Below, one piece after another: positions 9,958 through 53,335 of a stretch of DNA of 64,000 nt; positions within the stretch are counted from its first letter, which is position 1; every line of letters begins with the position of its first letter. Source of the stretch: Giardia intestinalis (taxonomy: Eukaryota). The translations under genes were made by a program, and so were the position numbers. The stretch lies in NCBI GenBank assembly GCA_000002435.2, contig CM018793.1. One strand, 5' to 3'. The notes under the pieces were generated by a model. The model made no database searches. It saw nothing but the letters and a program-made list of their open reading frames with translations, and was not told where the DNA came from.

Positions 9958-10558
9958 TTACTGAACGCGATTGAGAAGCCATCGCAATTGAACAACGCTA
10001 GGCAGCGTTTTCGATCTGCAAACATACATACCCTCCCTTAGCGGTGCGCAAACAGGGGCGCCCGCGCATGCCCTGGACCGGGGCGGGGCGCAAAGGCAGG
10101 CCGCGCGAAGTCTGGCCCTGGCCGACCCGGAGCCGACGTCGTGACCCGCGCATGACGGGGCTTCTTGTGCCCACACCGCTCCTCTGGTGCGAGCTTTGCC
10201 CTTCTGTGAATGGGGGCGGGCTGGCCCGTTGCAGGCTACTTCTCTCATCGACCCCCGTGAGCCCGCCCATCTCCAAATCTCGTGGGCGCGCGTCAGTATT
10301 GTGCGTCCATTGTCTTATCCTGGTAAGGATTCTCCCATCTGCAGGTCCTCGCAGTCACTAGTGGCACGCCATTTTCGCGGTCTAGACCAACCTGACCCTT
10401 CGGAGCCAAGTGCGCTCTTGATTCGGGGACTCTTTAGTTGCCTGGGTCGACGAACAAGGGCGACGTCAAGAGAGTCACAGCGCAGCATCTACTCAGCCCC
10501 AATAATGAAACTTTGGAACACGGCTATCTCTGCTCCTGGGCCGGATGCACTGTTCTAA
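9958..10558. other. GC-rich non-coding island (not T-depleted), adjacent to the 5' end of the ankyrin pseudogene
   Basis: A strongly GC-rich run (cggggcggggcgcaaaggcaggccgcgcg...) with short overlapping ORFs in every frame and no coherent coding frame. Confidence 0.4.
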
Positions 10559-11784
10559 GCAGTTGCTAATAATGATACTGATGCTGTTTTTTCGTTAAGG
10601 AAAGCACACGCTAAACGCCGTAATGATAAGGGGTACACAGCACTTATGCTTGCGCTCCGCAAAAGCTACTACGACATTGCAATGATCCTGGCACGGCATG
10701 AACACGGAGTCCAGGATTCTCTCCAGAAGACCGCTCTTATGTACTGCATTGACCGCCAGTCACTGCGTCTCATTGATGTCCTCGGACCTTATGAGAAGGG
10801 TCTTGCCGACTTCAAAGGAAAGACTGCCCTCTATCATGCATATGAGAACAAGAACCTAAATGTTATGGAAAGGCTCTGTAAGTACGAAGCTGACCTACCA
10901 ATACCTATTCTCGAGGGATCTGTAACAGGTAGAACTCTCTTGATGTTGGCTGCGCGGGAAGGAGACTGTGCGTGATTAAAGATTCTGATACCGTACCAGG
11001 CCGGAAGACGCGATAGTATGAGCTGGTGCGCTTCACGCTACGCCATAGAGATGGGTCGAGTTGCGTGCTTGAAGCTGCTTATCACACATGAAAAGTGCCT
11101 GCTGGGGGAAGATGGTTTTACGTAGCTGATGATAGCCGTAGCAATGCGCTCTGCAGAGCCACTGGTGCAATACAAGGATAGCATCCGCCGGCGTACAAAC
11201 GATGGACGCACAGCCCTGATGATCGCTGTGTATAGCAATAACATCCCAGCAATCAAGCACTTGATCGCCAGTGAGAAGGGGATGCGGAGACCGGACGATC
11301 GAACTGCGCTCATGATTGCTGCGGAGAAGGATAGTGCAGAGGCATGCCGGCTCCTGGCGCCTCATGAGTCGGGGATACGCATATCCAGCAATATACACCT
11401 GAGCAACAAGCAAGAGATCGGAAAGCCAGTAGCACTGATGCTGGCAATCGTCGCGAAAAGCGTACGATGCCTGAAGTGGCTGGGCGAGTATGAAAAAAAG
11501 ATGACAGAGATCAAGCAGCAGATGACGTCTCTCATGATTGCAGCGCAGGTGGGGCACGTCGAGGCAGTTCAAGTTTTACGAAGTGCCGAGGCGGGCGAGC
11601 AGGACTCTTAGGCTGGACAGCGCTAATGCACGCTGCGGCGTGGGATCATCCAAACATAGTCAAGTATCTCGTCCCCTACGAGCTGGGCTTGGTTGATGAG
11701 AATGACCAATCGGCTCTCGATCTTGCGGTGAAGTACGGACAACTGTCGTGCATAAGGATCCTAGCTCCAGCTTGTGCCCCATAG
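10559..11784 (+). pseudogene. Ankyrin-repeat (Protein 21.1-type) pseudogene: no start codon, two in-frame stops and one frameshift
   Basis: A continuous ankyrin-repeat translation (…GYTALMLALRK…, …DGRTALMIAV…, …DRTALMIAAEKD…) is interrupted by an in-frame TGA at 10973-75 and a TAG near 11123. A 1-nt frameshift near 11609 (D-S-L-G-W-TALMHAA continues in the +1 frame) runs to the stop at 11782-84. There is no ATG between the upstream stop (10556-58) and the first ankyrin unit. Confidence 0.6.
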
Positions 11785-12185: not shown

Positions 12186-14084
12186 TTGCTACTTGCTGAA
12201 AATTGCAATAAAATGTTGATGTCTATGTCAGTCGTGCTTCTTCTGGTGCGGTCTTCTACATCTGCCAGTTGTGATGTTGACTACTGCACCGAGTGCGTCC
12301 CAGACTACCCCGATAACTGCATGATATGCCAGGATGACTATAAGCTAGACGTGGAAACGGGCAAGTGCGTTCCATGCCCAAAGGGTACATGGGGTCCCAG
12401 GTGTTCCACACGCAAGTGCTGGCTTACCACACGTGTCAATTGTCTAGAATGTAGTAGCACAGACCGGTGCTGGACTTGTGAAGACGGGTACTATGTGACG
12501 TGGTATGGGGGCTGTGGTGCGTGTGCAGAAGGCACCGGAGGCTATGAGTGTCAGGACCTCATCTGTAATGGGGTTGCACTAACGAATTGTAAGACTTGTG
12601 ATACTGCAACAGAGGGGACCTGTGCAGTTTGCAAGGATTCTTACAAGCTGATTCCAGAGACCAATAAGTGCGAAGCGTGCCCCGATGGCCGAATCGGACC
12701 AGAGTGCATTTCGATGAGGTGTCTGGCCACAACCAGAGACTATTGCCTCGAGTGTCTTTCTGGGACGAATCGTTGCAGCCGGTGTTACGACGACTTTCAT
12801 CCTAATGAGCTTGGAAAGTGTGTTCAATGTCAAGGGAATACCGGTGGCTACAATTGCGAGAAGACTAAATGCAATGGAAAGATATCCGAGAATTGTGCGA
12901 CTTGCTACTCAGCTGAAGATGCAATCTTGGAGCCAGGGGCATGCAAAGTTTGCAAAGATGGGTACTACAAGGAGTCTAGTAACTCCATTACTTGTACACC
13001 GTGTCCAGACAATAGATTGAGTGATGGGATTACATGCAATGCGGTGTTGTGTTCTGGGACCCGCTACGATAACTGCCATACGTGTACAGAAGGCGAACCA
13101 ACGTGCCAGCTCTGCATTGATGGTTATGGTCCCAATGAGACGGGCTCTTGCACGCCGTGCCCTGATGGCAAAGGCGGGCCAAACTGTGTGGGGACAAAGT
13201 GCACAGCTGATCAACTGGCCCTTGTTGACGACTGTAGATTCTGTGGAGATGATGGAGCGTGCGTTCAGTGTGCTGCAGGCTTTATGCTCGATAATAAGGA
13301 GTGCGTTCCTGTCAATGGATGCCAGAGCCCCAACTGCAGAAGCTGCACCGTCACAGAGAGAACAGAGACTTGCAAGCGTTGCCAAAAGGGATATTATGTT
13401 GTTGGGGGCAGGTGTGCACGTTGTGTCGGGAACTGCCTCGACTGTAAGAGCGCAAGCATCTGTGTTGCGTGCGAGGACGGTTATACGTTGACGGTCGACG
13501 TTTGCGTATTGAATTCCCCAGACGTAGACGTGGACTCCTGCAGCATCTCAAACTGCCTGGTGTGCCTGGCCAACAACCGAGACGTTTGTGCCACGTGTTC
13601 TAGCGGCTATCTATGGAATGCAAATGAAAAGGCCTGTGTTGTAGCTTGCCCAGATACTAACTGTATTGATTGCAATCAATCCACTGGTGAGTGCAGCGCC
13701 TGTGGCGTTGGATATGGAATGCAGGGGGCTCTCTGCTATCCTTGTACAATTAGTGATTGCTCTAGTTGCAGCTTTCGCACAGATTCTACATCAGGAGAGA
13801 GCACCGAAGTATGCGTACGGTGCTCTTCTGGAGAACTGACCACTGATGGGCAATGTAAGGAGATTGTGCGAATGAGTAAGAAGACGATTTTCGCTTCATC
13901 CGTTGGGATCGTTGTCCTAGTTCTCCTAGTGTGTATTGGTGTTGGACTCTTCTTCGTTTTTCGACGTAAGCCAGCTCAACAACTCGATGTTACTTCAGAA
14001 ACTCGTCTTATGAACTCTCAGAAAAATATGGAACCGACCTCTGTTGACACCAACCCCGAATGTGTGGAGTATGAAACTGACTAG
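12186..14084 (+). CDS. High-cysteine membrane protein (HCMP, VSP-like CxxC/EGF-like repeats, type I TM)
   Basis: Signal peptide MSMSVVLLLVRSSTSAS; dozens of CxxC motifs; a single C-terminal TM segment (IVVLVLLVCIGVGLFFVF) plus a cytoplasmic tail that does not end in CRGKA; AGTAAAT poly(A) signal about 50 nt 3' of the stop. Confidence 0.85.
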   Translation: MLLAENCNKMLMSMSVVLLLVRSSTSASCDVDYCTECVPDYPDNCMICQDDYKLDVETGKCVPCPKGTWGPRCSTRKCWLTTRVNCLECSSTDRCWTCEDGYYVTWYGGCGACAEGTGGYECQDLICNGVALTNCKTCDTATEGTCAVCKDSYKLIPETNKCEACPDGRIGPECISMRCLATTRDYCLECLSGTNRCSRCYDDFHPNELGKCVQCQGNTGGYNCEKTKCNGKISENCATCYSAEDAILEPGACKVCKDGYYKESSNSITCTPCPDNRLSDGITCNAVLCSGTRYDNCHTCTEGEPTCQLCIDGYGPNETGSCTPCPDGKGGPNCVGTKCTADQLALVDDCRFCGDDGACVQCAAGFMLDNKECVPVNGCQSPNCRSCTVTERTETCKRCQKGYYVVGGRCARCVGNCLDCKSASICVACEDGYTLTVDVCVLNSPDVDVDSCSISNCLVCLANNRDVCATCSSGYLWNANEKACVVACPDTNCIDCNQSTGECSACGVGYGMQGALCYPCTISDCSSCSFRTDSTSGESTEVCVRCSSGELTTDGQCKEIVRMSKKTIFASSVGIVVLVLLVCIGVGLFFVFRRKPAQQLDVTSETRLMNSQKNMEPTSVDTNPECVEYETD

Positions 14085-14448: not shown

Positions 14449-15120
14449 TTGATCCTGACCGTACCGAAGAGTGGTGGTCTGGGCCACCTGCCTGGGGTCT
14501 GCTGCAGCAGCTGGCAGTGCCTGACACCCTCGAGTAGACGGGCGCCGGTTGTAGAGAGAGACGACCTCGATGAACTGGTCCTGATCGCTTCTGATGCTTC
14601 GGATGACACCCTTCAGAGAGGTGGCCCTGGACCGACGCCTCGACAGACCGAATCATTCCCCCAGGTGTGCTGTGCAGTGCAGATGGACCAGCCCACACGT
14701 CACTGAGCCAAACACGCTGCACAAGGTGAGCGTCGACACGGTCTCGTGCTGGGTGACGGAGCACCTGCAAGAGCGCACCGCAATCCATGAATAGGAGGGC
14801 CATACTTCTCCCCCGACACAACGCATGGGAGCTGTCCACTGGCATCCACGAACGCGTACTATGACTCCAAGATAGAGGTGCATGGGGAGCGCACCCTTGA
14901 TAATGGAACAGATAGTGCCCTCCACGAGGAGACGAAGAGGCACCCCGAGGAACGGGGTGGACACCCGGGGTCGTGGGGCGCGATCTTCGTCACGGAAGAC
15001 CAGAGCCCTGGATTCTGTGGGGGCCAGATCGCAGTGACCGACGCAAGGCCCGAGACAGCAGGTGCCCACTCAAGCGTCAGACAGTAGTTGGCCAAGGGAA
15101 GGGAGGAATCCTCAAAAAGC
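14449..15120. other. GC-rich, T-depleted (plus-strand) non-coding island 3' of HCMP-1
   Basis: No coherent ORF and overlapping short ORFs on both strands. The plus strand is rich in A/C/G and visibly poor in T. Confidence 0.4.
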
Positions 15121-15175: not shown

Positions 15176-17791
15176 TTAGGATTGGATGGCATCCGAATTT
15201 CGGATTTTGGACTTTGCCCAAGAGTAAGTGAGAAGCCCATCTGCCCAGAGCAATGGTGGTTTGCAGGGATATTTACTCAGACAACAACTAGCAAGTTGAC
15301 TTTGGTAAAAAAGAGTATGTCTTCTGTTATTTTCTGCTGCCAACATGAGAGCAGTCTCACCATCATCATTCTTCTTGTCTTTATCAGAAAGGTTCTTCTT
15401 AACTCTTTCAGTATCGCCGGCGAAGGAAGCGCACATGACTGGGGTCTAGGATGAGGCCCCGTGTTTGTGGAGAAGCAGAGCTATGCTTGTGTGCTTGTTC
15501 TTAAGATCATGCATGAACACCGTGTTTCCAGCCTTGTCCTTCATTCCATTATGAGCTGGTATAAGCAGCTCTACTAGCTTTGCGCCCCCCTAATAACAGC
15601 CCGCATAAGTGCTGTCATACCATCATCATCTGTTGGGTCCTCATAAGATATAAGCATCTCAGCAACTTCTAGATGTCCATTTTTAAGAGAATAGTACAGA
15701 GCATTGTGATTTTTCCTATCCTTCAGTTCCTTCTGGCTTGGTATCAGCAGTCTCACAGAGTTTATGTCACCTTTCATAGCCACTTTCATAAGTGAAGTAA
15801 CACCATTGTCATCTAGCATTTTTGTTAGAAAGACCATCTGTATGAAAGGAGCATCAAAATTCTCATTGTTGCAAACTGTGTCCCAAATTTTCCTATAGAA
15901 TTCAGCAGAATCAGCAAGGGTGAGGAACAAGCGTTCACTCGAAGCAAGTTGATTGATGACTTCGGCAACAAGTGTCTGTATGTCTCTGCGGATACCTTCT
16001 ATTTGTTGTTTGTAAAGGTCCGATTCATCCTGGTTACCATTCTTGTCCTCACAGGACGTGTCCCGAATGAACCAGAAGCTGAAGTCGATGTAACGACGGA
16101 AGCTATTACGCAATTTGGAAGGGACTGAGTTCTCATATATTCCTTTGATATCATTGTTAAGTGCTTCCTTCATGTGATCTTCTCCCTTTCCATTACACCG
16201 ATGGATATCGATGAACAGCCTAAGTTTGTGATATATATTTTGACGTCGTTGCGGGGCTGGAAGTAGACTGAGAAGATCGATTTGAGGAGATTGGCGCAGA
16301 ATCCTTCTACACGACTAACATCTGTCTGCAAAATATGAACAATAAGAATGTCGGCAATGGCAGATGCGAAAGCGCCTATACAGCGTTCAATATTCTGATC
16401 ATTTTCTGTGGCACGCTCTTTGCTCTCGGACCCCTTACAATAGAGTAGTAGTATGGTCGGATAGGATCCTGCACCTGGGATGAATCCCGCTGTAAGCCCC
16501 TTGGTCGTCTTTTGTCAGTCGTCATCTTCATCCAACGCCTTGAGGCATGTTCCAAAGAGGTCGTTGAAGAGGGTTGACCTGCTATATGACTGGTCAAGAA
16601 TAACGACACGCGCATAATGAAGGGAGTCAGAGCTGGGATGCTCCGCGCAAGAGCCATATACTTCTTGCTGTATGCGCCCCCGTCTGTAACAAAAGGAGCC
16701 TCTATTCTTCAATGAATAGGGTCGATACCACTGTCTTCCTCAGTAAGGTGTTCTTCAGCAGCTTCAACACTTGTACCACTGAAAGGATATACAAGCGGGG
16801 GCTTAGACATGTTCATGGACGTAGAAGAAGTTAAAGAAACCGTAACATTTGTCGGAGTGGAGCGTTCTGCAAGATGTTCGGATTCCTTATGTTGATCCTC
16901 CGCTTTAATTGCAGGGCTATTGAGTGTTTGGAAAAAGCCAATGATCTTTCTGGTCGTGGGCTGCTCTGCCGGGTCCAGGATAATATCTTCTCGATGACAG
17001 TTCTTACAAATTCATCTGTGATGGCGCCCAAATCAGGCCTCCACTCATTGTCAAAGACTGCTTTCGCATCCTCTGGCTCCCAAAGTGTGAGAAGCTCGGC
17101 AAGCTCATACATGACGACTCCGGAGGCTCAGATATCCGAAGCGGTGCTCGTCTCGTATGAAGGTCTCGGGGGCTATGTATGCCGACGTTCCTGCAAAGGT
17201 GCCTCCACTATGCAGAGAGTCCTTGCAGAGCCCAAAGTCTGCGAGCACGATGCGCTAGCCGTCCCTATTCATCAGAGTTGGCGGGCCCGAGGTCCCCGTA
17301 GACGAGGCTGTAAGATAAGCTCCCGTCTTCGGCCACCTTGCGAGGGTTGTGGAGGTAGGCGAGGGCGTCAGCCATCTGCTCTAGGAGAGGGAACATCAGC
17401 CCCTTGGGACTGGGTTTACGAGCTGCCCTGTAGGCAGTGATAAATTTCTGGAGATCCCCGTGGTGGCGGTCCATGATGACAAAGATGGGTCGTTGCTCCT
17501 GATCACCTGGTGATACTTGATGACGCCGGGCTGGGAGAGTCTCGTAACAGTTTTCAGTTCGCACTCTGTGAGCTTCTTCTCACTACGCTTGATCATCCTC
17601 TCCTTCACAGAAAGGCCTGGACACCCATCGATGGCGCGAACGGCACCGAAGCCCCCTTTACCTAGCAGCTCGCCTTCGCGCTGATACAGCCCTTCGGGAC
17701 TGAACATGGGGATGCTATCGAGGCCACTGCCAGCGCTCTCTGCAGCACGAGTGGGACTTTCACTGACCATGTCATGCGCAATTAGATTCAC
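15176..17791 (-). pseudogene. Decayed NEK-like kinase + coiled-coil + ankyrin-repeat gene, fragmented by multiple frameshifts
   Basis: Collinear minus-strand ORF fragments in different frames: an N-lobe (LGKGGFGAV…VIKYHQVI; 17396-17791), a middle part (VIMDRHHGDLQKFITAYR; 17265-17564), a C-lobe (16831-17112), coiled-coil and ankyrin units (NGVTSLMKVAMKGDINSVRLLIP; 15574-16173) and more ankyrin (DGETALMLAAENN; 15176-15436). The architecture and motifs parallel the 51781-53335 gene. Confidence 0.55.
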
Positions 17792-18489
17792 GCTTTCTAT
17801 TACGCCAAACTAACAATTACTGTACTGGGTCCAATTTTCGCAGAATCTGTGGGTAGATAACAATCATGGATTCGGTGAGCCTCAGCCTTGCTACCTCCTG
17901 GTCGAACGCTTTTCCTCGCGCATCATTACCCAATCCCAATCAGCACAGAAGCCTCTGAAGTCGTGGGATTGCAACCAAAGCGCCCTTAGTGAGACAGATC
18001 TTACGAATTGACCCCTTCTGTCCATCAATCTGAGTGCACGGAGCCATCTTGTGCCAGTGTGAGCTCCTGTGCAGCAAAATAGGTACTGTGCTGCTGGAGC
18101 CTCGCCTCACGCGGTCCAGAAGTCTCACGAGTAAATTCTCGCTCAATTCCTGGCCAATCCGGAGACGAGGGCTGGTTGTAGACAACATACTAGAGGGTCC
18201 CCTCTATTAGTGTATCTAAAACCTGGCACCTTCCCCGGTCGCTCTGTGGGTGTGTGCTCAGACTATGTGTGGGCGTCGCTCAGCCTTGGATTCAGCTTAC
18301 TCACCAGCACATGTAGTCTATGAGTAGTGCCTCGCTTCATGGTCTTTCTTCATGGTGGATGATAGATATGGGTTGCTACTATCTTTTTAACAATGCTTTC
18401 ACTTGTCTCGACGACAGCAGCTATTAGGTCTCTGGCTCGCTATAAGGGGCATCGTTATTTGTTCTCGGTCGCTGCTTCCCCTGTGAGTA

Positions 18490-18700
18490 AGCAGATCTTC
18501 TCTCGCCACCTCTCCAGCTCCACTGGCTGGGCCCCTCGATGTCCGTCTGGCTGTGGTTCTGGGTCAGCGCTCTACAGTCGCGGTCACCTGGATCTCATGG
18601 CGGGCCGGCTGGTGGGTGAGGCAGGGTTGGTGGGGCGGTGAGGCCGGAGGGGCTCCTGGTGGGGACCGGGTGGGGCGGTGTTCGTATGTGCCCTGGATCC
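18490..18700 (+). repeat. Left arm of an imperfect inverted repeat of about 210 bp
   Basis: Nts 18490-18700 align to the reverse complement of 20281-20500 at about 85-90% identity. One example is a 52/53 match in gggccggctggtgggtgaggc(a/g)gggttggtggggcggtgaggccggagggg; another is cactggctgggcccctcg(a/g)tgtccgtc(t/c)ggctgtg. Left has a 12-nt insertion. Confidence 0.7.
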
Positions 18701-20280
18701 GGTGGACTGGGGTGATCATAGCTGTGGTGACTGGGGGCTATCCATCTGTGACTCACCCCTCTGTGGGCTCGTGGTCTGTGAGTGCCTCCACCCAGACAAC
18801 GCCTCAGGAGCCGTGCACACCGGGACAGAGAGGATGACCAAGGGAGTCAGGCAGCCCTACCATGAGGGTGCACAGCAGCCAGCCTGAGCTGTAGGGTCTG
18901 CTCGAGCGATGTAGTGGCAGACGACTCCCTCTGACAGCAGCCCTGGTGACTGCACTGGTCTGCTCTCGAGACTGAGTGACAGTGCACACAGATGGACCTG
19001 AGTGCAGGAGGACCATCCACACACGGACAGACTGTGTGGACCCAGAGAGGACTGGAGTCTGCTCGGGACACGCTGACTGTGCCCCGTACGAGAGCCCCAG
19101 GCAACCACCCGAGCACCCGAGAGGCAGTGACAGACACGGGCACCAGAGATCCCCGGCCAGACACATTACTGTGCTCATCCACAGGGGCATCAGAGGGCCA
19201 GGTGAAGTCACCCTCACAACCAAGGGCCTGATAGGAAGCCAGAGGACTCAAACACTACAGCACAGCAGGCCCAAGGGAGGCACACTCCAGGCAGGTGAGC
19301 AGTGGCAGAGCCCTGACAGCTGCCAGCCCCCCATGACACCCAGGCAGGCACGACTCGCCGAAGACTCCGCTGGCCTCCATCGATGACCCAGGGGGCAGCA
19401 GCCAGAGGAGTGAGGAGGCCTTCGGATGACACAAGAGGCCCGGCTGTCCAGCAGGCGATGGAGCACAGGTGGTCTCTGAGTACCACCCAGGCACAGGACT
19501 GACCATCAGAGTGATGCCCGATCACAGAGACGACCACGAGCACCCTCCACTGCACTCTGAGGGGCTGTCAATCATCCCACTGCCTCTCATAGCAGACCTC
19601 CTTGGGGGCAGTGCAGTGGGTGACCCGGCTCGTGCAGGAGGGTGCACACCCCTCAGTATAGGGTGCCCCGGCTCTCCCCGAGGGGCCATCAGAGCCACGA
19701 GGATGGGTCAAGGTCCTGATAGATCACATCGGGAGCTCCCGAGGGCACAGCAGGTGATGTTGGGTGACCCTCAGCGTACTCCTCTCTGATGGTAGAGCAT
19801 CCTGAGACCAAGGAGGACTCACCCCTGCCTATGAACAACACACAGCGCTCCACAACAAGGATCTACCAGGAGCAGCACAGCTGGCCACGGGGACAGTGCA
19901 GCCACCAGTGCCCCACCGTGCCAGTCTTCTGGGCCATCACACTAGAGGCATGACAGAACCCCATCCCATCCACAGGGTTGTCCATACCCCTGCTGGCCCG
20001 AGGTGAACTACCGTCGAGGCACTGGACAGGGCATGCCAGGAGGCTCAGCAGACCCGCACAGAGCATCAAGATGGGCTGCGATGGTCTGCCTCACCCCTCA
20101 CGCACCAGCCAGACAGAGCAGCAGTACTACTTGAGACATGCAGGGGCCAAGGGAGGCACTCAGTCAAGGGACACGACACGATCGTCGGTGCCTCTGTCTC
20201 GGGAGTGCAACGAAGGCTGGAGATCAGACACAACCACCTTGGCAAACAGAGTGGGGATCACCCACCACCTCAATGGTCCA

Positions 20281-20500
20281 CCGGACCCAGGGGCACATAG
20301 AGACACCGCCCCCGGTCCCCTCCGGCCTCACCGCCCCACCAACCCCGCCTCACCCACCAGCCGGCCCACTGTGAGACCTAGGTGACTGGACTGTGGGAGC
20401 GTTGCCCGGGACACAGCCGGACGGACACCGAGGGGCCCAGCCAGTGAGAGAGCCTGGTGGCAGCCCCCGACAGACGGGGCATCTAAAAAAGACAGCGACC
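20281..20500 (-). repeat. Right arm of the inverted repeat (reverse complement of 18490-18700)
   Basis: Same alignment as the left arm. The peptide TGWAPRCPSGC is encoded on opposite strands at both arms (ORFs 18393-18641 + and 20350-20592 -), confirming the inverted symmetry. Confidence 0.7.
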
Positions 20501-20798
20501 CGAGCTTCACCCACCAGGACGGCAGACCAAGGAGAGGCGCCACGGGTAGAGCAGAGAGTCTGCGAAAAGGCCAGGGCCCTGGACGCGCACACTCAAATCG
20601 AGTACATGCCCGCGAAGTGGCAGAGGGGCGCACCAAGCTCTGGATGCGCTAATAGAGAGGAATCCCTAGCATGTTATCCACAACCAGCCCTCGTCTCCAG
20701 ACGGCCAGGACATGGGTGAGGCTTACCCGTGGGACGTCTGGACGCACCAGCAGCCGGGGCCTAGTAGCATAATCTACATAATCCATATACAGCAACGC

Positions 20799-20817
20799 GT
20801 TTACTACCTAAGTACAT
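20799..20817 (-). promoter_or_regulatory. VSP extended polyadenylation signal (ACTTAGGTAGTAAAC on the coding strand)
   Basis: The reverse complement of 20799-20817 is tgtACTTAGGTAGTAAAC, directly after the TAG stop. It contains the AGTRAAY motif, and the same block follows the mini-VSP. Confidence 0.6.
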
Positions 20818-22728
20818 CTACGCCTTGCCCCTGCAGATGAACCACCAGCAGAGGAAGCCGACGAGGCCGCCGACAACAACGATGACAGCGACGGAGATCC
20901 CCGCTATGGCGCCTGTGCTAAGGCCGCTCTTGTTCGTGTTCCCGCCGTTGTTATCGTTACCACCATCGTTAGTGACATCTGTCTTGACGTAGCAGGTGAC
21001 AGGACCGCCATTGCCACCAGTTGGAGGGGCACAGCTTACGCAATTTGGGACACCAACAATATGGCTACCATCATTGGGATCATTGGTGTCGCACTTCACA
21101 CATTTTGCTCCGGCAAGATAGTATCCCGGAAGGCACGTTTTGCATGCCTCCTTGTTTGCTACCTCACATGTTTTACAACCAGATGCACATGCTGGACAAG
21201 ATCCAGTGCTAGCTTCTGGTTGTTGTCCATTAGCACAATTCGTACATTTTCCATTCTGAGCATTGCTACATAGGTTGCTGCCTGGGTATGCAGCCGACTG
21301 ATAGCATCCGCCAGATTGCAAGAAGTATGTGGTTGTACACGCTTTGCATGTTCCATCATTGTTATCATTTGGCATGCATCCAGTTACTGCCCTTGTCGTT
21401 GTCGACACACAGACGCCGTCCACCGGGGCGAACCCTGCCTTGCACCTGCTGCAGTACTTCGAGCCCCCAACGACGGCCGTGCACTGGCCAGCCTCGCAGT
21501 TCTCTGCGTACCTTCCCGTGCACTCTGGGATGCATGTGCCGGTGGCTCCAGTATTGCTTTTGCTCAATACAAGCCCAGGATAACAAGCTGTACAGGAGGC
21601 TTCACTATCACCATCACATTCTGCACAAGAATTATGGCAATTAGTACATATCCCGCTGACATCACGAGTTCCTGCAGGACAGCCCTCCATACACATGTTC
21701 TTTAAGGGGCTTAGGCTTTTACCTCCAGTACACTCTTCACACATATTCTCTTCATTACACTTTATACAATCCTGTATATCACATAGTACACACTTCGTTC
21801 CGTCGGCGTTGGGTTGATTAGTACCTGCTATACAAGCAGAGCACGTGATGAGAATTGTACCTTCAGGATTATCCTTCAAAGCACACGTTTTGCAGTCTGC
21901 TATCCCTTCTGAGCATTTCTTACACATTTTTCCATTAGTAGGATCGTCAGCATCATCAGTGAAGTGGGAGTTATCATTACATCCACTTTTATCAACACAT
22001 GTATTAGAGTCCTCGGTTTCGCCCTTTTTTAGATATGGCTTGTTAGCGGTTGCCTTGCACTTCGTGCATTTTCCTGCTCCTGCATCGCATTTAGCACAGT
22101 TATTGTCCTGGCATGCTGTGCATGCTGCCCCATTGCTGTCAACAAAGAACCCCTCAAGACATGACTCACATACGGCAACCTTGTCTTGGCGAGCAGCACC
22201 AGCACTGGCTGGCGGCTGACACGTAGCACAGTTCAGAATTCCTTTATACGTATTTCCACCATCCACAACTCCAGTTGCATCATTGCATGCAATACAAGAG
22301 TCCTTATTGTTAGCTGCACTTGGGTTTTTAAAATAGCCAACTACGCAACCCTCACAAACGCCAGGAGTTTTTGATGACACACGACCAGCAGCTGCGGCAT
22401 CGGCGCAAATAAGGCGTCCAACGTCCCCGCCAATTGCATAGCATCCGTTCTTATGGAGGAAGTAAGCCCCGTCGCATTGCCCACATGTCTTTTCTGTTGT
22501 TATTTCAGCTCCAGCATCAGTCTTACATCCAGCAGTTGTGACAGTAGCATCCCCCTTTGGTGTGCATACTCCGTTGATAGGAACGTCTCCTTCAGCTTTG
22601 CATTCTGTACAGATCTCAGTATCACTTGTACTTATTTTTACACACTGCGTACATTTAGCAATTTGGGCATCCGATTGACAAGCTGCCGTAAGAGCGCTCA
22701 GCACGAAGTAGAAAGCTACCAATAACAT
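20818..22728 (-). CDS. Variant-specific surface protein (VSP), 636 aa
   Basis: Signal peptide MLLVAFYFVLSALTAAC, many CxxC motifs, and the invariant C-terminus …GLVGFLCWWFICRGKA*, which is the VSP TM segment plus CRGKA tail. Confidence 0.9.
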   Translation of the reverse strand: MLLVAFYFVLSALTAACQSDAQIAKCTQCVKISTSDTEICTECKAEGDVPINGVCTPKGDATVTTAGCKTDAGAEITTEKTCGQCDGAYFLHKNGCYAIGGDVGRLICADAAAAGRVSSKTPGVCEGCVVGYFKNPSAANNKDSCIACNDATGVVDGGNTYKGILNCATCQPPASAGAARQDKVAVCESCLEGFFVDSNGAACTACQDNNCAKCDAGAGKCTKCKATANKPYLKKGETEDSNTCVDKSGCNDNSHFTDDADDPTNGKMCKKCSEGIADCKTCALKDNPEGTILITCSACIAGTNQPNADGTKCVLCDIQDCIKCNEENMCEECTGGKSLSPLKNMCMEGCPAGTRDVSGICTNCHNSCAECDGDSEASCTACYPGLVLSKSNTGATGTCIPECTGRYAENCEAGQCTAVVGGSKYCSRCKAGFAPVDGVCVSTTTRAVTGCMPNDNNDGTCKACTTTYFLQSGGCYQSAAYPGSNLCSNAQNGKCTNCANGQQPEASTGSCPACASGCKTCEVANKEACKTCLPGYYLAGAKCVKCDTNDPNDGSHIVGVPNCVSCAPPTGGNGGPVTCYVKTDVTNDGGNDNNGGNTNKSGLSTGAIAGISVAVIVVVGGLVGFLCWWFICRGKA

Positions 22729-50765: not shown

Positions 50766-51194
50766 CTACGCCTTCCCGCGGCAGAGGAACCACCAGCAGA
50801 GGAAGCCCACAAGCCCTCCTATAACGATGACAGCAGCCACAACAATGCCTGCAATAGCGCCAGTAGAAAGGCCGTTACTCTTGTTGGTGCCAGAAGACAC
50901 GCACGCGGTCTTCCCATCGTTCAGGCTGAATCCCTGGTCGCACACACACACCTTCTGGTCGTTGGCCGCGGAGTTCAGCGGGCAGCCCACGGCGCAGCTT
51001 CTTTTATCGAGTTGCACGTTCTGGCCAGAGACCTTGCAGTCCAGGCACGTCTGGTCGGGTTCTGCCCCGGCGCACGTCTTGCACCCTGCCGTGTCCAACC
51101 CTGATGCGCAGTTTGTGTTGGAAGCCACGCACGCGGTCTTCCCGCTGTCCTTTGCCAGCACGGTTGCACAAACTAGGAGAAATCCTACCAACAT
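50766..51194 (-). CDS. Miniature VSP (142 aa): signal peptide, a few CxxC motifs, canonical TM plus CRGKA tail
   Basis: Ends …STGAIAGIVVAAVIVIGGLVGFLCWWFLCRGKA*. The likely start is the Met at 51192-51194 (MLVGFLLVCATVLA signal peptide); the longer 209-aa ORF merely adds a non-VSP-like N-terminal extension. Confidence 0.75.
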   Translation of the reverse strand: MLVGFLLVCATVLAKDSGKTACVASNTNCASGLDTAGCKTCAGAEPDQTCLDCKVSGQNVQLDKRSCAVGCPLNSAANDQKVCVCDQGFSLNDGKTACVSSGTNKSNGLSTGAIAGIVVAAVIVIGGLVGFLCWWFLCRGKA

Positions 51195-51982
51195 TAGCCG
51201 GAGTTCATGTGCCACTGCTCTTCTGTCAGGCTGATGTGTTGCCGCGAGCAGTGAGAGACAGCCGCTCTTACTCTCTTGATCAGTTGGACTGGAGAAAGAC
51301 GAGATAGGAGCATGCCCACCGGAGGCCAGTTGATAGCACGGTTCCCCCTGACTTCGATAGGAACAGGATGAGTGAGGGCCAGACTCAGATCGCACCTCTC
51401 TTGTGGAGTGATTGATTGGGGTGCACTCCTGTACATTGCTGTCGCTGTATCACTGGGCCCACCTGCAGGTGCGCTCAGAGATCCCACGGGTAAGCCGCGC
51501 CCACTTCCTGGTCGTCCGAAGACTATGGCTGGTTGTGGATAACATACTAAGAGCTCCTCTCCATCGATGCATCCAGAGCCCTGTGTGGTCCCAGTCGGCG
51601 TGCTCTGTCTGGGGCGCTCCGTGTCGGCCTCCAGGATCTGGCCTGCTCAGGGCCATACGAGCCGCTAGTATGCCCTCCTTGGCCTGCCATCGACAGCTCG
51701 CACTAGGCGCCTTGCTCGGGCAGTAACCAAGGTCACACCAAAGGGTGGCTCCGGATTGCAGTTAAAATCAGCGGCGGCTGTTGACTCCACTCCTTGTCCC
51801 AGCCACCGCAGAGGGTGCCCTGGGAGATGCTAGTAACAGTGCAGTTAGCAGCTTTGCAGGGCCGATGGGCGCTGGTGGCGTTCCCGTGTTCAGCCCCAAA
51901 AAGTTGCATAGACGCCTAGGTAACATGCTCAGCAGGCACCCTCAGTGTTATCTACTCTCTCAGGGGATGCCCCTACCTTGCT

Positions 51983-53335
51983 GTGGAGGAGATTCAGCTC
52001 GATGGTTTGGATCAGCACGGTGTGGATGCTATTAAGCGTAGGCTGACCGCTCTTCTAGGCACCCTTCACCCAGACGTTCTCAAATACCACCAGGTGCTTA
52101 CAGACGGCAACGCGATCCTTGTTGTCACAGACCGCTGCTGTGGAGACCTCCGGCAGTTCATCACCGACTACAGGGACATTCACGAACCTATTCTCAGCAA
52201 GCTGGTCCTCTCCCTTCTGGGGCAGCTGGCTGGCGCCCTTGCCCACCTCCACGGGCTCAGCAGAGGTGCCCACAGCGGCTTGCCCTCTAGCGTTGTCCTC
52301 GAGCCCGACAACATCATGTTCGCTGGGGACAGGCGACGTGTCGTCCTTGGAGACTTCGGGTTCTGCAAGGGCATATTGAGTGGAGCTGCGAAGGCCGGCG
52401 ACCCCGCGTACATGGCCCCCGAGACACTCCTCTGCGGTGACATGACCCAAGCATCCGACGTCTGGAGCCTCGGGGCCATCGCATACGAGCTCGCCACCCT
52501 GAGGAAGCCGGACTTCCTAGAAGGTAAAGACCCAAAAGACGTCTTCGTTGACGGATGGAGGCCAGACCTGAGCGGTGTCGCAGACGACCTCGCAAGGAGC
52601 GTCCTTGAAGGAATGCTCGTCCTCGATCCTGCCGAGAGGCCGACAGCCAGAAGGCTTGTCCGTCTACTTCTGAGGCTTGACATCTCTGCTGATGAACAGG
52701 AGGCCCAAGACACAAGGCTAAAGGAGGCGCGCGCAGCCTTTGCAGACGCCTTGAATAGAGCCAACAACGAAACAGTAGCTCTTAGGAAGGACCCTCCTGA
52801 TCGAGCTACAAGAATGGACATCATCAGGGAGCAGTGTGCTATTGCCGCCAAGCTATTCAGGGAAATACAGGAGATTAAGGCAGAGATGGGCGAAACAGAC
52901 GAGCCAGACGAAAGGGAGGATTCAGAAGAGCCAGAGAAGAAGCACCTAATAGAGGAGGACGACTCCACCGACCTCATGAGGGCAGTCGATAGAAACGACG
53001 TGGAGGCCGTGAAGGCCCTCATACCACTCCAGGGGGGCACGAAGATGAAGGGATGCGCACTTGTAGGTGACTGGAAAATATACGAGGGAACTGCCCTGAT
53101 GAGAGCGGCGGTATATGGATACACAGAGATCGTGGGGCTGCTCGTGGAGAAAGAGAAGGGACTGAAAGATAGCAACGGATGGACGGCCCTCATGTGGGCT
53201 GTGAAGAACGATCACACAGATTGTGTCAGGCTCCTCATGAGAGAGAAGGACTTGAAGGGTTATAATGGAGGGACTGCCCTTGAAATGGCTAAGTTATGGA
53301 GAAACCATGAGATAGTCGCCCTCCTCTCAGAGTAA
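51983..53335 (+). CDS. NEK-like pseudokinase (lacks Gly-loop and HRD) + coiled coil + C-terminal ankyrin repeats
   Basis: Kinase C-lobe motifs are degenerate (LEPDNIMF instead of HRDLKPxN; DFGF; PAYMAPE), followed by ankyrin units (GTALMRAAVYGYTEIVGLL; NGWTALMWAVKNDHTDCVRLL). The beginning of the N-lobe (VFSPKKLHRRLGN…) is encoded in another frame at 51781-51982, so the N-lobe is frameshifted. Confidence 0.7.
   Translation: MEEIQLDGLDQHGVDAIKRRLTALLGTLHPDVLKYHQVLTDGNAILVVTDRCCGDLRQFITDYRDIHEPILSKLVLSLLGQLAGALAHLHGLSRGAHSGLPSSVVLEPDNIMFAGDRRRVVLGDFGFCKGILSGAAKAGDPAYMAPETLLCGDMTQASDVWSLGAIAYELATLRKPDFLEGKDPKDVFVDGWRPDLSGVADDLARSVLEGMLVLDPAERPTARRLVRLLLRLDISADEQEAQDTRLKEARAAFADALNRANNETVALRKDPPDRATRMDIIREQCAIAAKLFREIQEIKAEMGETDEPDEREDSEEPEKKHLIEEDDSTDLMRAVDRNDVEAVKALIPLQGGTKMKGCALVGDWKIYEGTALMRAAVYGYTEIVGLLVEKEKGLKDSNGWTALMWAVKNDHTDCVRLLMREKDLKGYNGGTALEMAKLWRNHEIVALLSE

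What the first reader, a model, noticed from the sequence alone, without database searches (positions are those of the whole stretch)
15176..17791. Decayed NEK-kinase/ankyrin pseudogene, paralogous to the NEK-ankyrin gene at 51.8-53.3 kb, whose own N-lobe is frameshifted
Five collinear minus-strand fragments in shifting frames reconstruct a NEK-like kinase (GKGGFGAV…VIKYHQVI…DRHHGDLQKFITAYR…) followed by coiled-coil and ankyrin units. The gene at 51983-53335 has the same architecture and near-identical motifs (VLKYHQVL, DRCCGDLRQFITDYR). Its Gly-loop region (VFSPKKLHRRLGN) sits out of frame at 51781-51982. From Met 51983 it can therefore only produce a pseudokinase lacking β1-β3, and LEPDNIMF replaces HRD. 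Two paralogs at different stages of decay, both embedded in the surface-antigen neighbourhood, illustrate ongoing birth and death in the NEK/21.1 expansion.
Basis: partly seen in the sequence, partly recalled or inferred. Interest (0 to 1): 0.5.

Follow-up and report, generated by a model that had tools for sequence, protein, structure and literature searches.

The report
Dead Giardia kinase–GTPase–ankyrin gene relic
This is a real but already catalogued dead copy of a Giardia NEK kinase gene; the one addition is that the stretch read as coiled coil is the wreck of a Sey1/RHD3-type GTPase domain, so the ancestral gene was a kinase–GTPase–ankyrin fusion that is still intact in other Giardia lineages.

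Summary
The window is Giardia duodenalis WB. On the minus strand, 17770→15335 is a badly decayed gene. Alignment that tolerates frameshifts scores 1004–1497 against intact relatives, against 35–51 for shuffled DNA. It shows at least 9 frameshifts, 5 in-frame stops, an internal deletion of about 865 codons and a lost C-terminus. Independent assemblies carry the same indels, and about ten lesions are shared with an assemblage A2 isolate.

The second gene is confirmed too. A 2-bp deletion near 51934 separates its start codon (51865) from the rest of an otherwise intact 486-codon NEK-ankyrin gene.

Both loci are already listed as Nek-GL4 pseudogenes by Manning et al. 2011 (GL50803_116089/GK420 and GK155), so the finding is not new.

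- The "coiled coil" at 16705–15821 is a full-length RHD3/Sey1-type GTPase domain relic (Pfam E=1.5e-20). The locus is collinear with an intact 2044-aa kinase–GTPase–ankyrin protein and with P15 gene GLP15_1450.
- Codon 51983 is GTG. The first in-frame ATG is 52316, which is where the annotated 339-aa product starts.
- LEPDN in place of HRD is shared by all intact members of that clade, so it is not decay.
- The two loci are only 41–44% identical in the kinase domain.

The parts
17771..18043 (-). 5' flank of the pseudogene, conserved with the P15 relative
   Evidence: A single blastn alignment, L002 9416-10555 to window 18043-16943 at 75.5% identity, starts about 280 nt upstream of the shared ATG.
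16900..17770 (-). NEK (Nek-GL4) kinase-domain relic. The ancestral ATG is at 17770. The Gly-loop GKGGFG, the VK lysine and DFG are kept. The catalytic loop has decayed to YGDLGPAN.
   Evidence: Frameshift-aware alignments. After frame correction it is 68% identical to the P15 L002 gene. The sequence matches G106 GL50803_116089 / GK420 'Pseudogene' in Manning 2011 Table S1.
17489..17498 (-). Frameshift 1, after ...VIKYHQVIR
   Evidence: Found with all four references. Shared with DH.
17276..17280 (-). Frameshift 2, after ...GDLGPAN
   Evidence: Shared with DH.
17255..17257 (-). In-frame stop TAG (NRDG*RIV), aligned to Q/E/D of intact relatives
   Evidence: Shared with DH.
17152..17157 (-). Frameshift 3, after ...APETFIR
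   Evidence: DH is also broken here, but differently.
17128..17130 (-). In-frame stop TGA replacing the conserved W of SDIW
   Evidence: Absent in DH, which reads SDIWAFG. Present in the WB copy GL50803_104193.
17082..17099 (-). Pair of frameshifts around the ancestral PSFSHF motif. The first comes with a short deletion.
   Evidence: DH keeps ELATMSLPSFSHF and has only the second shift.
16982..16986 (-). Frameshift 6, inside ...IEKI/ILDPAEQPT
   Evidence: Absent in DH, which reads EKIFILDP.
16706..16899 (-). Linker between kinase and GTPase (QTLNSPAIKAEDQHKESEHL...)
   Evidence: Collinear with the linkers of P0150 and GLP15_1450. The P15 L002 gene diverges from this point.
16709..16711 (-). 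In-frame stop TGA (DPIH*RIEAP), aligned to Q/R
   Evidence: Shared with DH.
15821..16705 (-). RHD3/Sey1-type (dynamin-superfamily) GTPase domain relic. The P-loop has decayed to LDQSYSRST and G3 to YCKG. The FIRD (G4) motif is kept.
   Evidence: Pfam PF05879 RHD3_GTPase: E=1.5e-20, 74.1 bits (cut-off 42.4), profile positions 4-245 of 245. Collinear with P0150 aa 366-661. 64% nucleotide identity to L019 over 1746 bp spanning kinase to GTPase.
16647..16651 (-). Frameshift 7, after ...AYSKKYMAL
   Evidence: Shared with DH.
16515..16517 (-). In-frame stop TGA (DEDDD*QKTTKG)
   Evidence: A2 isolates read R here and keep a 167-175-aa ORF.
16246..16250 (-). Frameshift 8, after ...SVYFQPRN
   Evidence: Shared with DH.
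15813..15838 (-). Junction of a large internal deletion. About 865 codons are missing relative to P0150 (aa 662 to about 1526): the stalk, the coiled coil and the first ankyrin repeats.
   Evidence: The P0150 alignment ends at aa 661 / window 15820. It resumes at about aa 1518-1527 / window 15838-15813. The same junction is present in DH.
15335..15822 (-). Relic of a few TALM-type ankyrin repeats, ending abruptly. The last 358 or so codons of a P0150-like gene are missing.
   Evidence: Pfam Ank_2 E=5.4e-23. 51-55% identity to P0150, P0121 and the P15 gene. 76.6% nucleotide identity to L002 10931-11236.
15587..15591 (-). Frameshift 9, after ...TALMRAVIR
   Evidence: Shared with DH.
15446..15448 (-). 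In-frame stop TAG replacing the W of SWTPLMCAA
   Evidence: Shared with DH.
15176..15334 (-). Run-on of the last ORF with no homology to any relative. It is not part of the ancestral gene.
   Evidence: All alignments stop at 15329-15335 except that to P0151, whose weak tail reaches 15287.
51865..52035 (+). Gene B: ancestral start codon and the first 23 or so codons (MGAGGVPVFSPKKLHRRLGNMLS). After the deletion this frame runs out of frame to a stop after 56 codons.
51934..51935 (+). Gene B: site of the 2-bp deletion, its only disabling lesion
   Evidence: Nucleotide alignment to DH paralog L021. The DP places a -2 shift here. Marked 'x' at the same place in Manning's GK155.
51944..53335 (+). 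Gene B: the rest of the ancestral CDS (kinase-dead NEK domain, acidic linker, ankyrin repeats). It is open throughout. The formal ORF starts at GTG 51983.
   Evidence: 85.6% identity to P0005 over 486 aa with no stops. Pfam Pkinase E=1.9e-19 from profile position 51 on, and Ank_2 E=1.8e-21.
52316..53335 (+). Gene B: the currently annotated 339-aa CDS (KAE8304653.1 / XP_037902131.1, 'Kinase, NEK'), starting at the first in-frame ATG (M112, inside LEPDNIMFAGD)

Best explanation
Window 17770->15335 (minus strand) is a non-functional relic of a large Giardia Nek-GL4 gene. That gene encoded an N-terminal NEK kinase, a linker, an RHD3/Sey1-type GTPase domain, a helical stalk with coiled coil, and a long array of TALM-type ankyrin repeats.

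Shown:
- Assemblage A keeps only the kinase, linker, GTPase domain and a few ankyrin repeats.
- An internal deletion of about 2.6 kb joins them, and the 3' end is missing.
- The remaining frame is broken by at least 9 frameshifts and 5 stop codons.
- About ten lesions, including the deletion junction, are shared with an A2 isolate.
- At least four lesions are specific to WB and others are specific to DH.

Inferred:
- The gene died before these copies diverged and has kept decaying since.
- Decay is close to neutral.
- The short ORFs once annotated as GL50803_116089, _10587 and _10589 are accidental remnants.

Gene B (51865-53335) is a different and more distant GL4 paralog from a clade that was already catalytically dead (LEPDN in place of HRD, no Gly-loop). 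A single 2-bp deletion after codon 23 or so uncouples its ATG from the body of the gene. This is a young inactivation. At best it leaves a 339-aa product starting at M112.

Both loci lie in a VSP and cysteine-rich-protein neighbourhood, where this family is known to duplicate and die quickly.
For: Alignment and controls:
- Collinear frameshift-tolerant alignments score 882-1497, against 35-51 for controls.
- RHD3_GTPase is above Pfam's cut-off over the whole profile.

The same architecture exists intact:
- P0150 has Pkinase 33-286, RHD3_GTPase 401-652 and ankyrin repeats to 2044, with HRD, DFG, GxxxxGKS and DxEG all present.
- GLP15_1450 has the same domains by Manning's table.
- The P0150 GTPase region matches Sey1p structure 5CA8 at E=2.7e-24.

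The lesions are real:
- Separate read sets give contigs with identical indels (L003, L007, L011, L012).
- Shared and private lesions against DH are mapped.

No sign of selection on the fragments:
- The six WB-versus-A2 differences in the 199-aa ORF are all nonsynonymous.
- Substitutions by ancestral codon position are 25/13/30.

Gene B:
- One frameshift and no stops against P0005. It is a 2-bp deletion.
- Substitutions against a paralog fall 39/36/76 by codon position, a third-position excess.
- GTG at 51983 and ATG at 52316.

Prior record: Manning et al. 2011 list GK420 and GK155 as pseudogenes.
Against: - Orthology between the WB locus and the DH and metagenome contigs is inferred from 5-8 kb of collinear flank. 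WB has at least two further copies (GK421, GL50803_104193), so some 'shared' lesions may reflect duplication of an already dead gene rather than A1/A2 ancestry.
- Divergence between WB and DH is uneven along the locus: 4.9% in the kinase, 2.0% in the GTPase and 0.6% in the ankyrin part. This suggests gene conversion and blurs the timing.
- The codon-position test is only weakly informative, with second positions somewhat depleted (p=0.035).
- The kinase domain is closest to a P15 gene that has no GTPase domain, so the family is mosaic. 'Ancestral architecture' rests on collinearity with two intact genes, not on a phylogeny.
- SAGE values are recorded for both loci (R=5.19 with max 13.5, and 'Constitutive' with 18.4), so both may be transcribed.
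- Gene B is still annotated as a protein.
Confidence: 0.9

Rival explanations
1. The frameshifts and stops are sequencing or assembly errors, and a continuous NEK-ankyrin ORF exists in the real genome.
For: This is a repeat-rich, paralog-rich region where assemblies can go wrong. Logan contig L004 differs by a gap of about 510 bp.
Against: Contigs assembled from separate read sets (L003, L007, L011, L012) match the window at 99.4-99.9% identity with no gaps across the lesions. The sequence that Manning et al. took from GiardiaDB release 2.3 shows the same breaks in the kinase part. DH and several metagenome contigs share most of the lesions. Five of the lesions are substitution-type stop codons, not homopolymer indels.
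Confidence: 0.02
2. The fragments are small functional genes in their own right. An example is the 199-aa ORF 15574-16173 (GL50803_10587), which is intact in every A1 and A2 contig examined and encodes half a GTPase domain plus ankyrin repeats.
For: The exact ORF is indexed in 38 blocks of the contig collection, and its A2 variant was read on 11 contigs. It was annotated as a protein in WB and as 'Serine/threonine protein kinase' ESU34795.1. Manning's table gives a SAGE value for the neighbouring fragment GL50803_116089.
Against: The ORF begins in the middle of the GTPase domain, after G1-G3. It ends at a frameshift inside an ankyrin repeat. All six WB-versus-A2 differences are nonsynonymous. 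No Pfam GTPase hit is obtained for its N-terminal 124 aa alone. It does not appear among NCBI proteins of the chromosome-level WB record.
Confidence: 0.05
3. The GTPase segment is a secondary insertion or recombination into an ordinary NEK-coiled-coil-ankyrin gene in the assemblage A lineage. On this view the locus is a chimera, not a decayed kinase-GTPase-ankyrin gene.
For: The kinase domain is most similar (68%) to a P15 gene that goes straight from kinase to coiled coil and ankyrin. Homology to that gene stops exactly at the end of the kinase domain and resumes in the ankyrin repeats. Kinase-less RHD3-ankyrin genes exist (P0151/P0299). Uneven divergence suggests gene conversion.
Against: The kinase-linker-GTPase junction, including the linker sequence, is collinear with two intact genes from other lineages, P0150 and GLP15_1450. 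An independent insertion would therefore have had to recreate the same junction. It is equally possible that the P15 L002 gene lost the GTPase module.
Confidence: 0.1
4. Gene B is not dead. It still makes a useful kinase-fold-less scaffold, either the 339-aa product from M112 or a product made by reinitiation. Its clade works as catalytically inactive scaffolds anyway.
For: There is a single lesion and the remaining 464 codons are open. Third-position excess in substitutions (39/36/76) shows purifying selection over most of its history. It is annotated as 'Kinase, NEK' of 339 aa in the chromosome-level WB record. Manning's table gives SAGE 'Constitutive', 18.4. By that paper, 71% of Giardia Neks lack catalytic residues and are thought to act as scaffolds.
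Against: A product from M112 lacks the whole N-lobe and alpha-D to the catalytic loop, so a kinase-like fold cannot form. Manning et al. classed it as a pseudogene. The selection signal mostly reflects the time before the deletion and the history of the paralog. The ancestral ATG now yields a 56-aa peptide.
Confidence: 0.3

Closest known systems
Nek-GL4 kinase pseudogenes of G. lamblia WB: GK420 (GL50803_116089), GK421 and GK415 (GL50803_104193), in Manning et al. 2011, Genome Biol 12:R66, Table S1
   Same: GK420 is this very locus. The printed reconstruction (FGVIESVNLIAHDMVSESPTRAAESAGSGLDSIPMFSPEGLYQREGELLGKGGFGAV...) matches the window and marks frameshifts and stops at several of the same places. 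The paper reports 30 WB kinase pseudogenes, 29 of them in GL4, and describes rampant duplication and pseudogenization.
   Different: The table covers only the kinase part, up to ...RQMLRFL. It records no ankyrin repeats or other Pfam domain for GK420. The GTPase relic, the internal deletion and the ankyrin tail are not described there.
GLP15_1450 (GK458), Giardia P15 (assemblage E): Nek-GL4 with 34 ankyrin repeats and Pfam RHD3
   Same: The order is the same (NEK kinase, then linker, then RHD3-type GTPase). It is collinear with the window over the 399 aa of sequence available: 56% identity, with the same lesions revealed.
   Different: It is intact, whereas the WB locus is dead. Manning's table scores it 0:1:0 (P15 only), and the main text does not mention the RHD3 domain. 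The present data show relics in assemblage A and intact relatives in human-gut metagenome Giardia.
Sey1p / RHD3 / atlastin class of dynamin-like membrane-fusion GTPases (Candida albicans Sey1p structure 5CA8)
   Same: The GTPase domain of the intact relative P0150 matches Sey1p at E=2.7e-24 over the GTPase domain and the start of the stalk. All intact Giardia relatives have GPQSSGKS and DCEG motifs.
   Different: From my own knowledge, canonical Sey1/RHD3 proteins end in a transmembrane hairpin that anchors them in the ER. P0150 and P0151 end in ankyrin repeats instead, and P0150 also carries a kinase. No Pfam stalk domain was detected. In WB the P-loop (LDQSYSRST) and G3 (YCKG) are destroyed.
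GK155 (gene B) and its intact WB paralog KAE8304910.1 (P0005, 486 aa)
   Same: Gene B is GK155, 'Pseudogene', in Manning's table. The frameshift is marked at the same place, after GNMLSRHPQ. It is 85.6% identical to P0005 along the full length.
   Different: The chromosome-level WB record annotates only a 339-aa product from M112.
Protein 21.1 / TALM-type ankyrin repeat proteins of Giardia
   Same: The ankyrin remnants carry the T(A/S/P)LM repeat starts (TSLM, TALM, TPVM) and match Ank_2. Manning et al. describe this TALM subclass for Neks.
   Different: Here the repeats are the tail of a kinase-GTPase gene, not a stand-alone 21.1 protein.

Membership tests
Giardia Nek kinase (Nek-GL4) pseudogene | Kinase-domain homology to Giardia Nek-GL4 members | tested here: met
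   The frame-corrected kinase domain is 68% identical to the P15 L002 gene (whose shorter annotated model P0028 is named 'Kinase, NEK') and 58% to GLP15_1450 (Nek-GL4), at E=1e-137 and 1e-116. A Pfam Pkinase trace is found on a single fragment.
Giardia Nek kinase (Nek-GL4) pseudogene | Reading frame disabled by lesions that are real, not assembly artefacts | tested here: met
   At least 9 frameshifts and 5 stops. Independent contigs carry the same indels. Most lesions are shared with DH.
Giardia Nek kinase (Nek-GL4) pseudogene | Listed in the published kinome catalogue as a pseudogene | tested here: met
   G106 GL50803_116089 GK420 'Pseudogene', and G127 GK155 'Pseudogene', with matching sequences.
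Giardia Nek kinase (Nek-GL4) pseudogene | No purifying selection on the remnant | tested here: inconclusive
   6 of 6 differences in the 199-aa ORF are nonsynonymous. Substitutions by codon position are 25/13/30, p=0.035. The counts are small, and orthology versus paralogy of the comparison is uncertain.
RHD3/Sey1-type GTPase (dynamin superfamily) | RHD3_GTPase domain (PF05879) above the curated threshold | tested here: met
   The window's conceptual translation scores 74.1 bits against a cut-off of 42.4, at E=1.5e-20, covering profile positions 4-245 of 245. The A2 ORF scores 68.6 bits.
RHD3/Sey1-type GTPase (dynamin superfamily) | Intact GTP-binding motifs: G1 GxxxxGK[ST] and G3 DxxG | tested here: not met
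   The window reads LDQSYSRST and YCKGSES where the intact relatives read GPQSSGKST and DCEGSES. The relic cannot be a working GTPase. The intact relatives P0150-P0153 meet this feature.
RHD3/Sey1-type GTPase (dynamin superfamily) | Helical stalk followed by a C-terminal transmembrane hairpin (ER anchor) | tested here: not met
   The stalk region is deleted in the window. The intact Giardia duodenalis relatives end in ankyrin repeats, and Pfam finds no stalk domain. They are therefore relatives of the GTPase domain, not canonical Sey1/RHD3 orthologs.
Catalytically competent protein kinase (gene B) | K72 / D166 / D184 and a Gly-rich loop | tested here: not met
   LEPDN replaces HRDLKPEN. AVEEI replaces the beta-3 VAIK lysine. 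The region where a Gly-loop would sit has no GxGxxG and is also disrupted by the frameshift. The intact paralogs show the same clade-wide losses.
TALM-type ankyrin repeats (Nek / Protein 21.1) | Ankyrin repeats starting with a TALM-like motif | tested here: met
   Ank_2 at E=5.4e-23 (pseudogene ORF) and 1.8e-21 (gene B). TSLM, TALM and TPVM repeat starts appear in the alignments.

The most novel reading that the evidence does not exclude
Giardia carries an undescribed family of soluble Sey1/RHD3-type GTPases fused to ankyrin arrays and, in some members, to an apparently active NEK kinase (P0150, GLP15_1450). The family was present in the ancestor of the G. duodenalis complex. It survives intact in P15 (assemblage E) and in Giardia from human-gut metagenomes, one contig of which has assemblage-B neighbours. 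At this locus, in the two assemblage A genomes examined (WB and DH), it has been reduced to dead relics. If assemblage A has no intact copy elsewhere, this would be a clean assemblage-specific loss of a kinase-coupled, dynamin-like membrane-remodelling protein. That could bear on differences in ER or peripheral-vacuole biology between the human-infective assemblages.
Probability: 0.3. Interest if true: 0.5.

Novelty: already known. Interest (0 to 1): 0.25.

Why it matters
As stated, the finding adds nothing new. Both loci were published as Nek-GL4 pseudogenes in 2011, and rapid birth and death of this subfamily next to VSP genes is an established picture.

Two practical points follow:
- Several database entries are pseudogene fragments and should not be treated as proteins. 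These are GL50803_10587, GL50803_10589 and GL50803_116089, the DH entry 'Serine/threonine protein kinase' ESU34795.1, and probably the 339-aa 'Kinase, NEK' KAE8304653.1.
- The relic shows that the kinase–RHD3 GTPase–ankyrin architecture, recorded only in a supplementary table as P15-specific, is older than assemblage A and was lost there. This gives Giardia researchers a concrete and testable difference between assemblages, and points to an unstudied dynamin-superfamily protein family.

Tried and rejected
- Synteny beyond the gene. Neighbours of the GS (L001) and P15 (L002) relatives were searched against the window. Only generic VSP similarity was found, so orthology could not be shown by flanking genes.
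- Word-based protein search with the GTPase segment returned only the pseudogene's own ORFs from other isolates. The exhaustive HMMER search was needed to find P0150-P0153.
- The look-up of encoding contigs found no record for the WB proteins P0005 and P0011. The gene B frameshift was therefore characterised against a DH paralog instead.
- A second copy of the pseudogene inside the window was looked for and not found.
- Pfam on single fragments was nearly blind. Only one of the four kinase fragments gave a hit, and that was weak. The frame-0 ORF 16376-16657 gave none.
- The alignment of the middle region to the coiled coils of GS and P15 was rejected as spurious once the GTPase homology was seen.
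- The assemblage of the P0150 contig could not be settled. It is 85% identical to the contig with assemblage-B neighbours in the GTPase and stalk, but only 76% identical to GS in the kinase.
- Literature searches for Giardia with RHD3, Sey1 or atlastin found nothing relevant.


Full report
**Origin of the window.** The 450-codon ORF at 51983-53335 finds Giardia duodenalis NEK kinases. One hit is a 100% match: the 339-aa 'Kinase, NEK' KAE8304653.1 of strain WB, on a 4,018,654-bp record. The window is therefore from Giardia WB (assemblage A1).
- a full VSP at 20818-22728 (minus strand);
- a cysteine-rich membrane protein at 12186-14084;
- a VSP C-terminal fragment at 50766-51395;
- a VSP at 55595-58069.

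**Checking the pseudogene.** I wrote a protein-to-DNA dynamic-programming aligner with BLOSUM62 scoring, affine gaps and an explicit frameshift penalty. The alignments were:
- GS (assemblage B) protein P0121: score 882.
- P15 gene on L002: score 1004, against 35-51 for reversed or shuffled DNA. Its true ORF starts at L002 9695, well upstream of the annotated P0028 start.
- The 2044-aa protein P0150: score 1497, 52% identity over 650 codons, window 17770-15820.
- The available 399 aa of GLP15_1450: score 965, 56% identity.

All alignments begin at the same ATG (17770, MVSESPT...). About 280 nt of upstream sequence is also conserved with P15.

The consensus lesions are as follows:
- Frameshifts near 17489-17498, 17278, 17154, 17099, 17082, 16984, 16649, 16248 and 15589.
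- Stops at 17257 (TAG), 17130 (TGA for W), 16711 (TGA), 16517 (TGA) and 15448 (TAG for W).

The catalytic loop reads YGDLGPAN, where relatives read HRDLKPDN or YRDLKPAN.

**The middle is a GTPase domain, not coiled coil.** In A2-type contigs the ORF immediately upstream of the 199-aa ORF carries a precomputed RHD3_GTPase hit. The window's own conceptual translation of about 16620-15820 matches Pfam PF05879 over the entire profile: 74.1 bits against a cut-off of 42.4, E=1.5e-20.

An exhaustive HMMER search with the A2 ORF (P0149) found several relatives:
- P0150 (2044 aa): Pkinase 33-286, RHD3_GTPase 401-652, coiled coil, then ankyrin repeats to the end.
- P0151/P0299 (1185 aa): RHD3 GTPase, stalk, coiled coil and ankyrin, with no kinase.
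- Five G. muris 'GB1/RHD3-type G domain' proteins of 945 aa.
- A 1042-aa protein (P0153) with a full-length RHD3_GTPase domain and a hydrophobic C-terminal stretch.

P0150 keeps HRD, DFG, the beta-3 lysine, GPQSSGKS, DCEG and FIRD. Its GTPase region matches the solved Sey1p structure 5CA8 at E=2.7e-24.

The WB locus is collinear with P0150 through kinase, linker and GTPase, at 64% nucleotide identity over 1746 bp. It then jumps to P0150 aa ~1527-1686 in the ankyrin array. So about 865 codons are deleted internally and about 358 are missing at the end. In the relic the P-loop is LDQSYSRST and G3 is YCKG.

**Are the lesions real, and how old are they?** Contigs from other sequencing runs match the window at 99.4-99.9% identity with no gaps across the lesions (L003 over 17916-15374, plus L007, L011 and L012). 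The DH assembly (L014, GCA_000498715.1) and several metagenome contigs are collinear for 5-8 kb at 95-97% identity.

DH shares these lesions with WB:
- the frameshifts at relative positions 98, 169, ~240, 384 and 519;
- the stops at 176 and 363;
- the deletion junction;
- the ankyrin frameshift and the ankyrin W-to-stop change.

DH lacks the WB-specific W219 stop (17130), the shift at 17099, the shift at 16984 and the stop at 16517. It has private lesions of its own.

The gene was therefore dead before these copies diverged and has kept decaying. One caveat applies. Manning's table shows further WB copies (GK421, and GL50803_104193, which shares the W-to-stop change). Some of the sharing may therefore reflect duplication of an already dead gene.

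The longest surviving ORF (199 aa, once GL50803_10587) differs from its A2 version at six nucleotides, all nonsynonymous. Substitutions across the relic fall 25/13/30 by ancestral codon position. There is no sign of protein-level constraint.

**Gene B.** Against the intact WB paralog P0005 (486 aa) the region 51865-53332 aligns end to end at 85.6% identity, with one frameshift and no stop. Nucleotide alignment to a DH paralog shows a 2-bp deletion at about 51934/51935. From ATG 51865 only 56 codons are now read.

It aligns to a valine of the ancestral protein. The first in-frame ATG is 52316 (M112, inside LEPDNIMFAGD), which is where the annotated 339-aa product starts.

LEPDN in place of HRDLKPEN and a degenerate Gly-loop occur in the intact paralogs P0005, P0001, P0003 and P0007. 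These are traits of a kinase-dead clade, not decay of this copy. Substitutions against the paralog show a third-position excess of 39/36/76, p=5e-5. That fits a recent inactivation, or residual function.

**Relationship of the two loci.** After frame correction, the pseudogene's kinase domain has these identities:
- 68% to the P15 L002 gene;
- 58% to GLP15_1450;
- 48-49% to P0121 and P0150;
- 41-44% to gene B and P0005.

The two loci are distant members of the same subfamily with different ancestral architectures.

**What is already known.** Manning et al. 2011 (PMC3218828) report 30 WB kinase pseudogenes, 29 of them in Nek-GL4, and describe rampant duplication and pseudogenization. Their Table S1 contains the following:
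- G106, GL50803_116089, GK420, 'Pseudogene', with this locus's kinase sequence.
- G127, GK155, 'Pseudogene', with gene B's sequence and the frameshift marked at the same place. It is listed with 4 ankyrin repeats and SAGE 'Constitutive', 18.4.
- In the P15 sheet, GLP15_1450 (GK458): Nek-GL4, scored 0:1:0, 34 ankyrin repeats, Pfam RHD3 at 5.3e-29. The RHD3 domain is not mentioned in the main text.

Full-text searches for Giardia with RHD3, Sey1 or atlastin found no discussion of such proteins.

**Verdict.** The new element is modest. This WB pseudogene is the relic of a kinase–Sey1/RHD3-type GTPase–ankyrin gene. That architecture is therefore not P15-specific: it is dead in assemblage A, and it is intact in P15 and in Giardia from human-gut metagenomes. 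One of those contigs (L020) has neighbours at least 90% identical to GS proteins. The assemblage of the P0150 contig remains undetermined.

Noticed in passing
L019 194-6328 (P0150); L020 903-4460 (P0299/P0151): There are intact Giardia genes encoding NEK kinase + RHD3/Sey1-type GTPase + stalk/coiled coil + ankyrin (2044 aa), and a kinase-less GTPase + ankyrin version (1185 aa). Both come from human-gut metagenome contigs. The L020 neighbours cluster at 90% identity or more with GS (assemblage B) proteins, and a VSP lies next to the gene. G. muris has five 945-aa RHD3-type proteins. No paper found discusses them.
   Followed up: partly
L002 9695-12214: The P15 'NEK, Kinase' model P0028 (737 aa) starts too far downstream, at MDRYHWDL. 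The ORF is open from an ATG at L002 9695 (MVSESPTH..., 839 aa) and includes the Gly-loop and beta-3 lysine.
   Followed up: yes
window 10540-11760 (+): Two ankyrin-repeat ORFs lie in different frames (10646-10975, 109 aa; 11129-11611, 160 aa). tblastn hits to NEK/21.1 ankyrin arrays span 10538-11763. This is probably another fragmented ankyrin (Protein 21.1-like) pseudogene.
   Followed up: no
window 50766-51395 (-): A 209-codon ORF with a GTG start matches only the C-terminal third of the VSP profile (positions 273-397) and ends in the CRGKA tail. It looks like a truncated VSP remnant about 470 bp upstream of gene B's ATG.
   Followed up: no
window 51851-51934 versus L021: The 84 nt just upstream of gene B's 2-bp deletion are identical to a DH paralog, whereas the genes are 88.6% identical overall. 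A cluster of substitutions follows the deletion. This may be a gene-conversion tract ending at the lesion.
   Followed up: no
L004 (Logan SRR16175767) versus window 17640-17127: This contig joins window 18007-17640 directly to 17127-15129. It therefore lacks about 510 bp of the kinase region, with a 14-nt overlap at the joint. This is either a further deletion in another copy or isolate, or an assembly artefact.
   Followed up: no
window 15300-17800 versus L014: Divergence between WB and DH is very uneven along the relic: 4.9% in the kinase, 2.0% in the linker and GTPase, and 0.6% in the ankyrin part. This suggests exchange with paralogous copies.
   Followed up: no
window 14770-14976: About 200 bp downstream of the pseudogene is 74% identical to sequence downstream of an unrelated DH NEK gene (L021 5584-5808). 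It may be a repeated intergenic element associated with NEK genes.
   Followed up: no
window 18000-20800: A GC-rich stretch (about 0.60) with no ORF of 200 aa or more lies between the pseudogene and the VSP. It aligns to DH at only 86.6%, against 95% for the pseudogene itself. Its nature was not examined.
   Followed up: no
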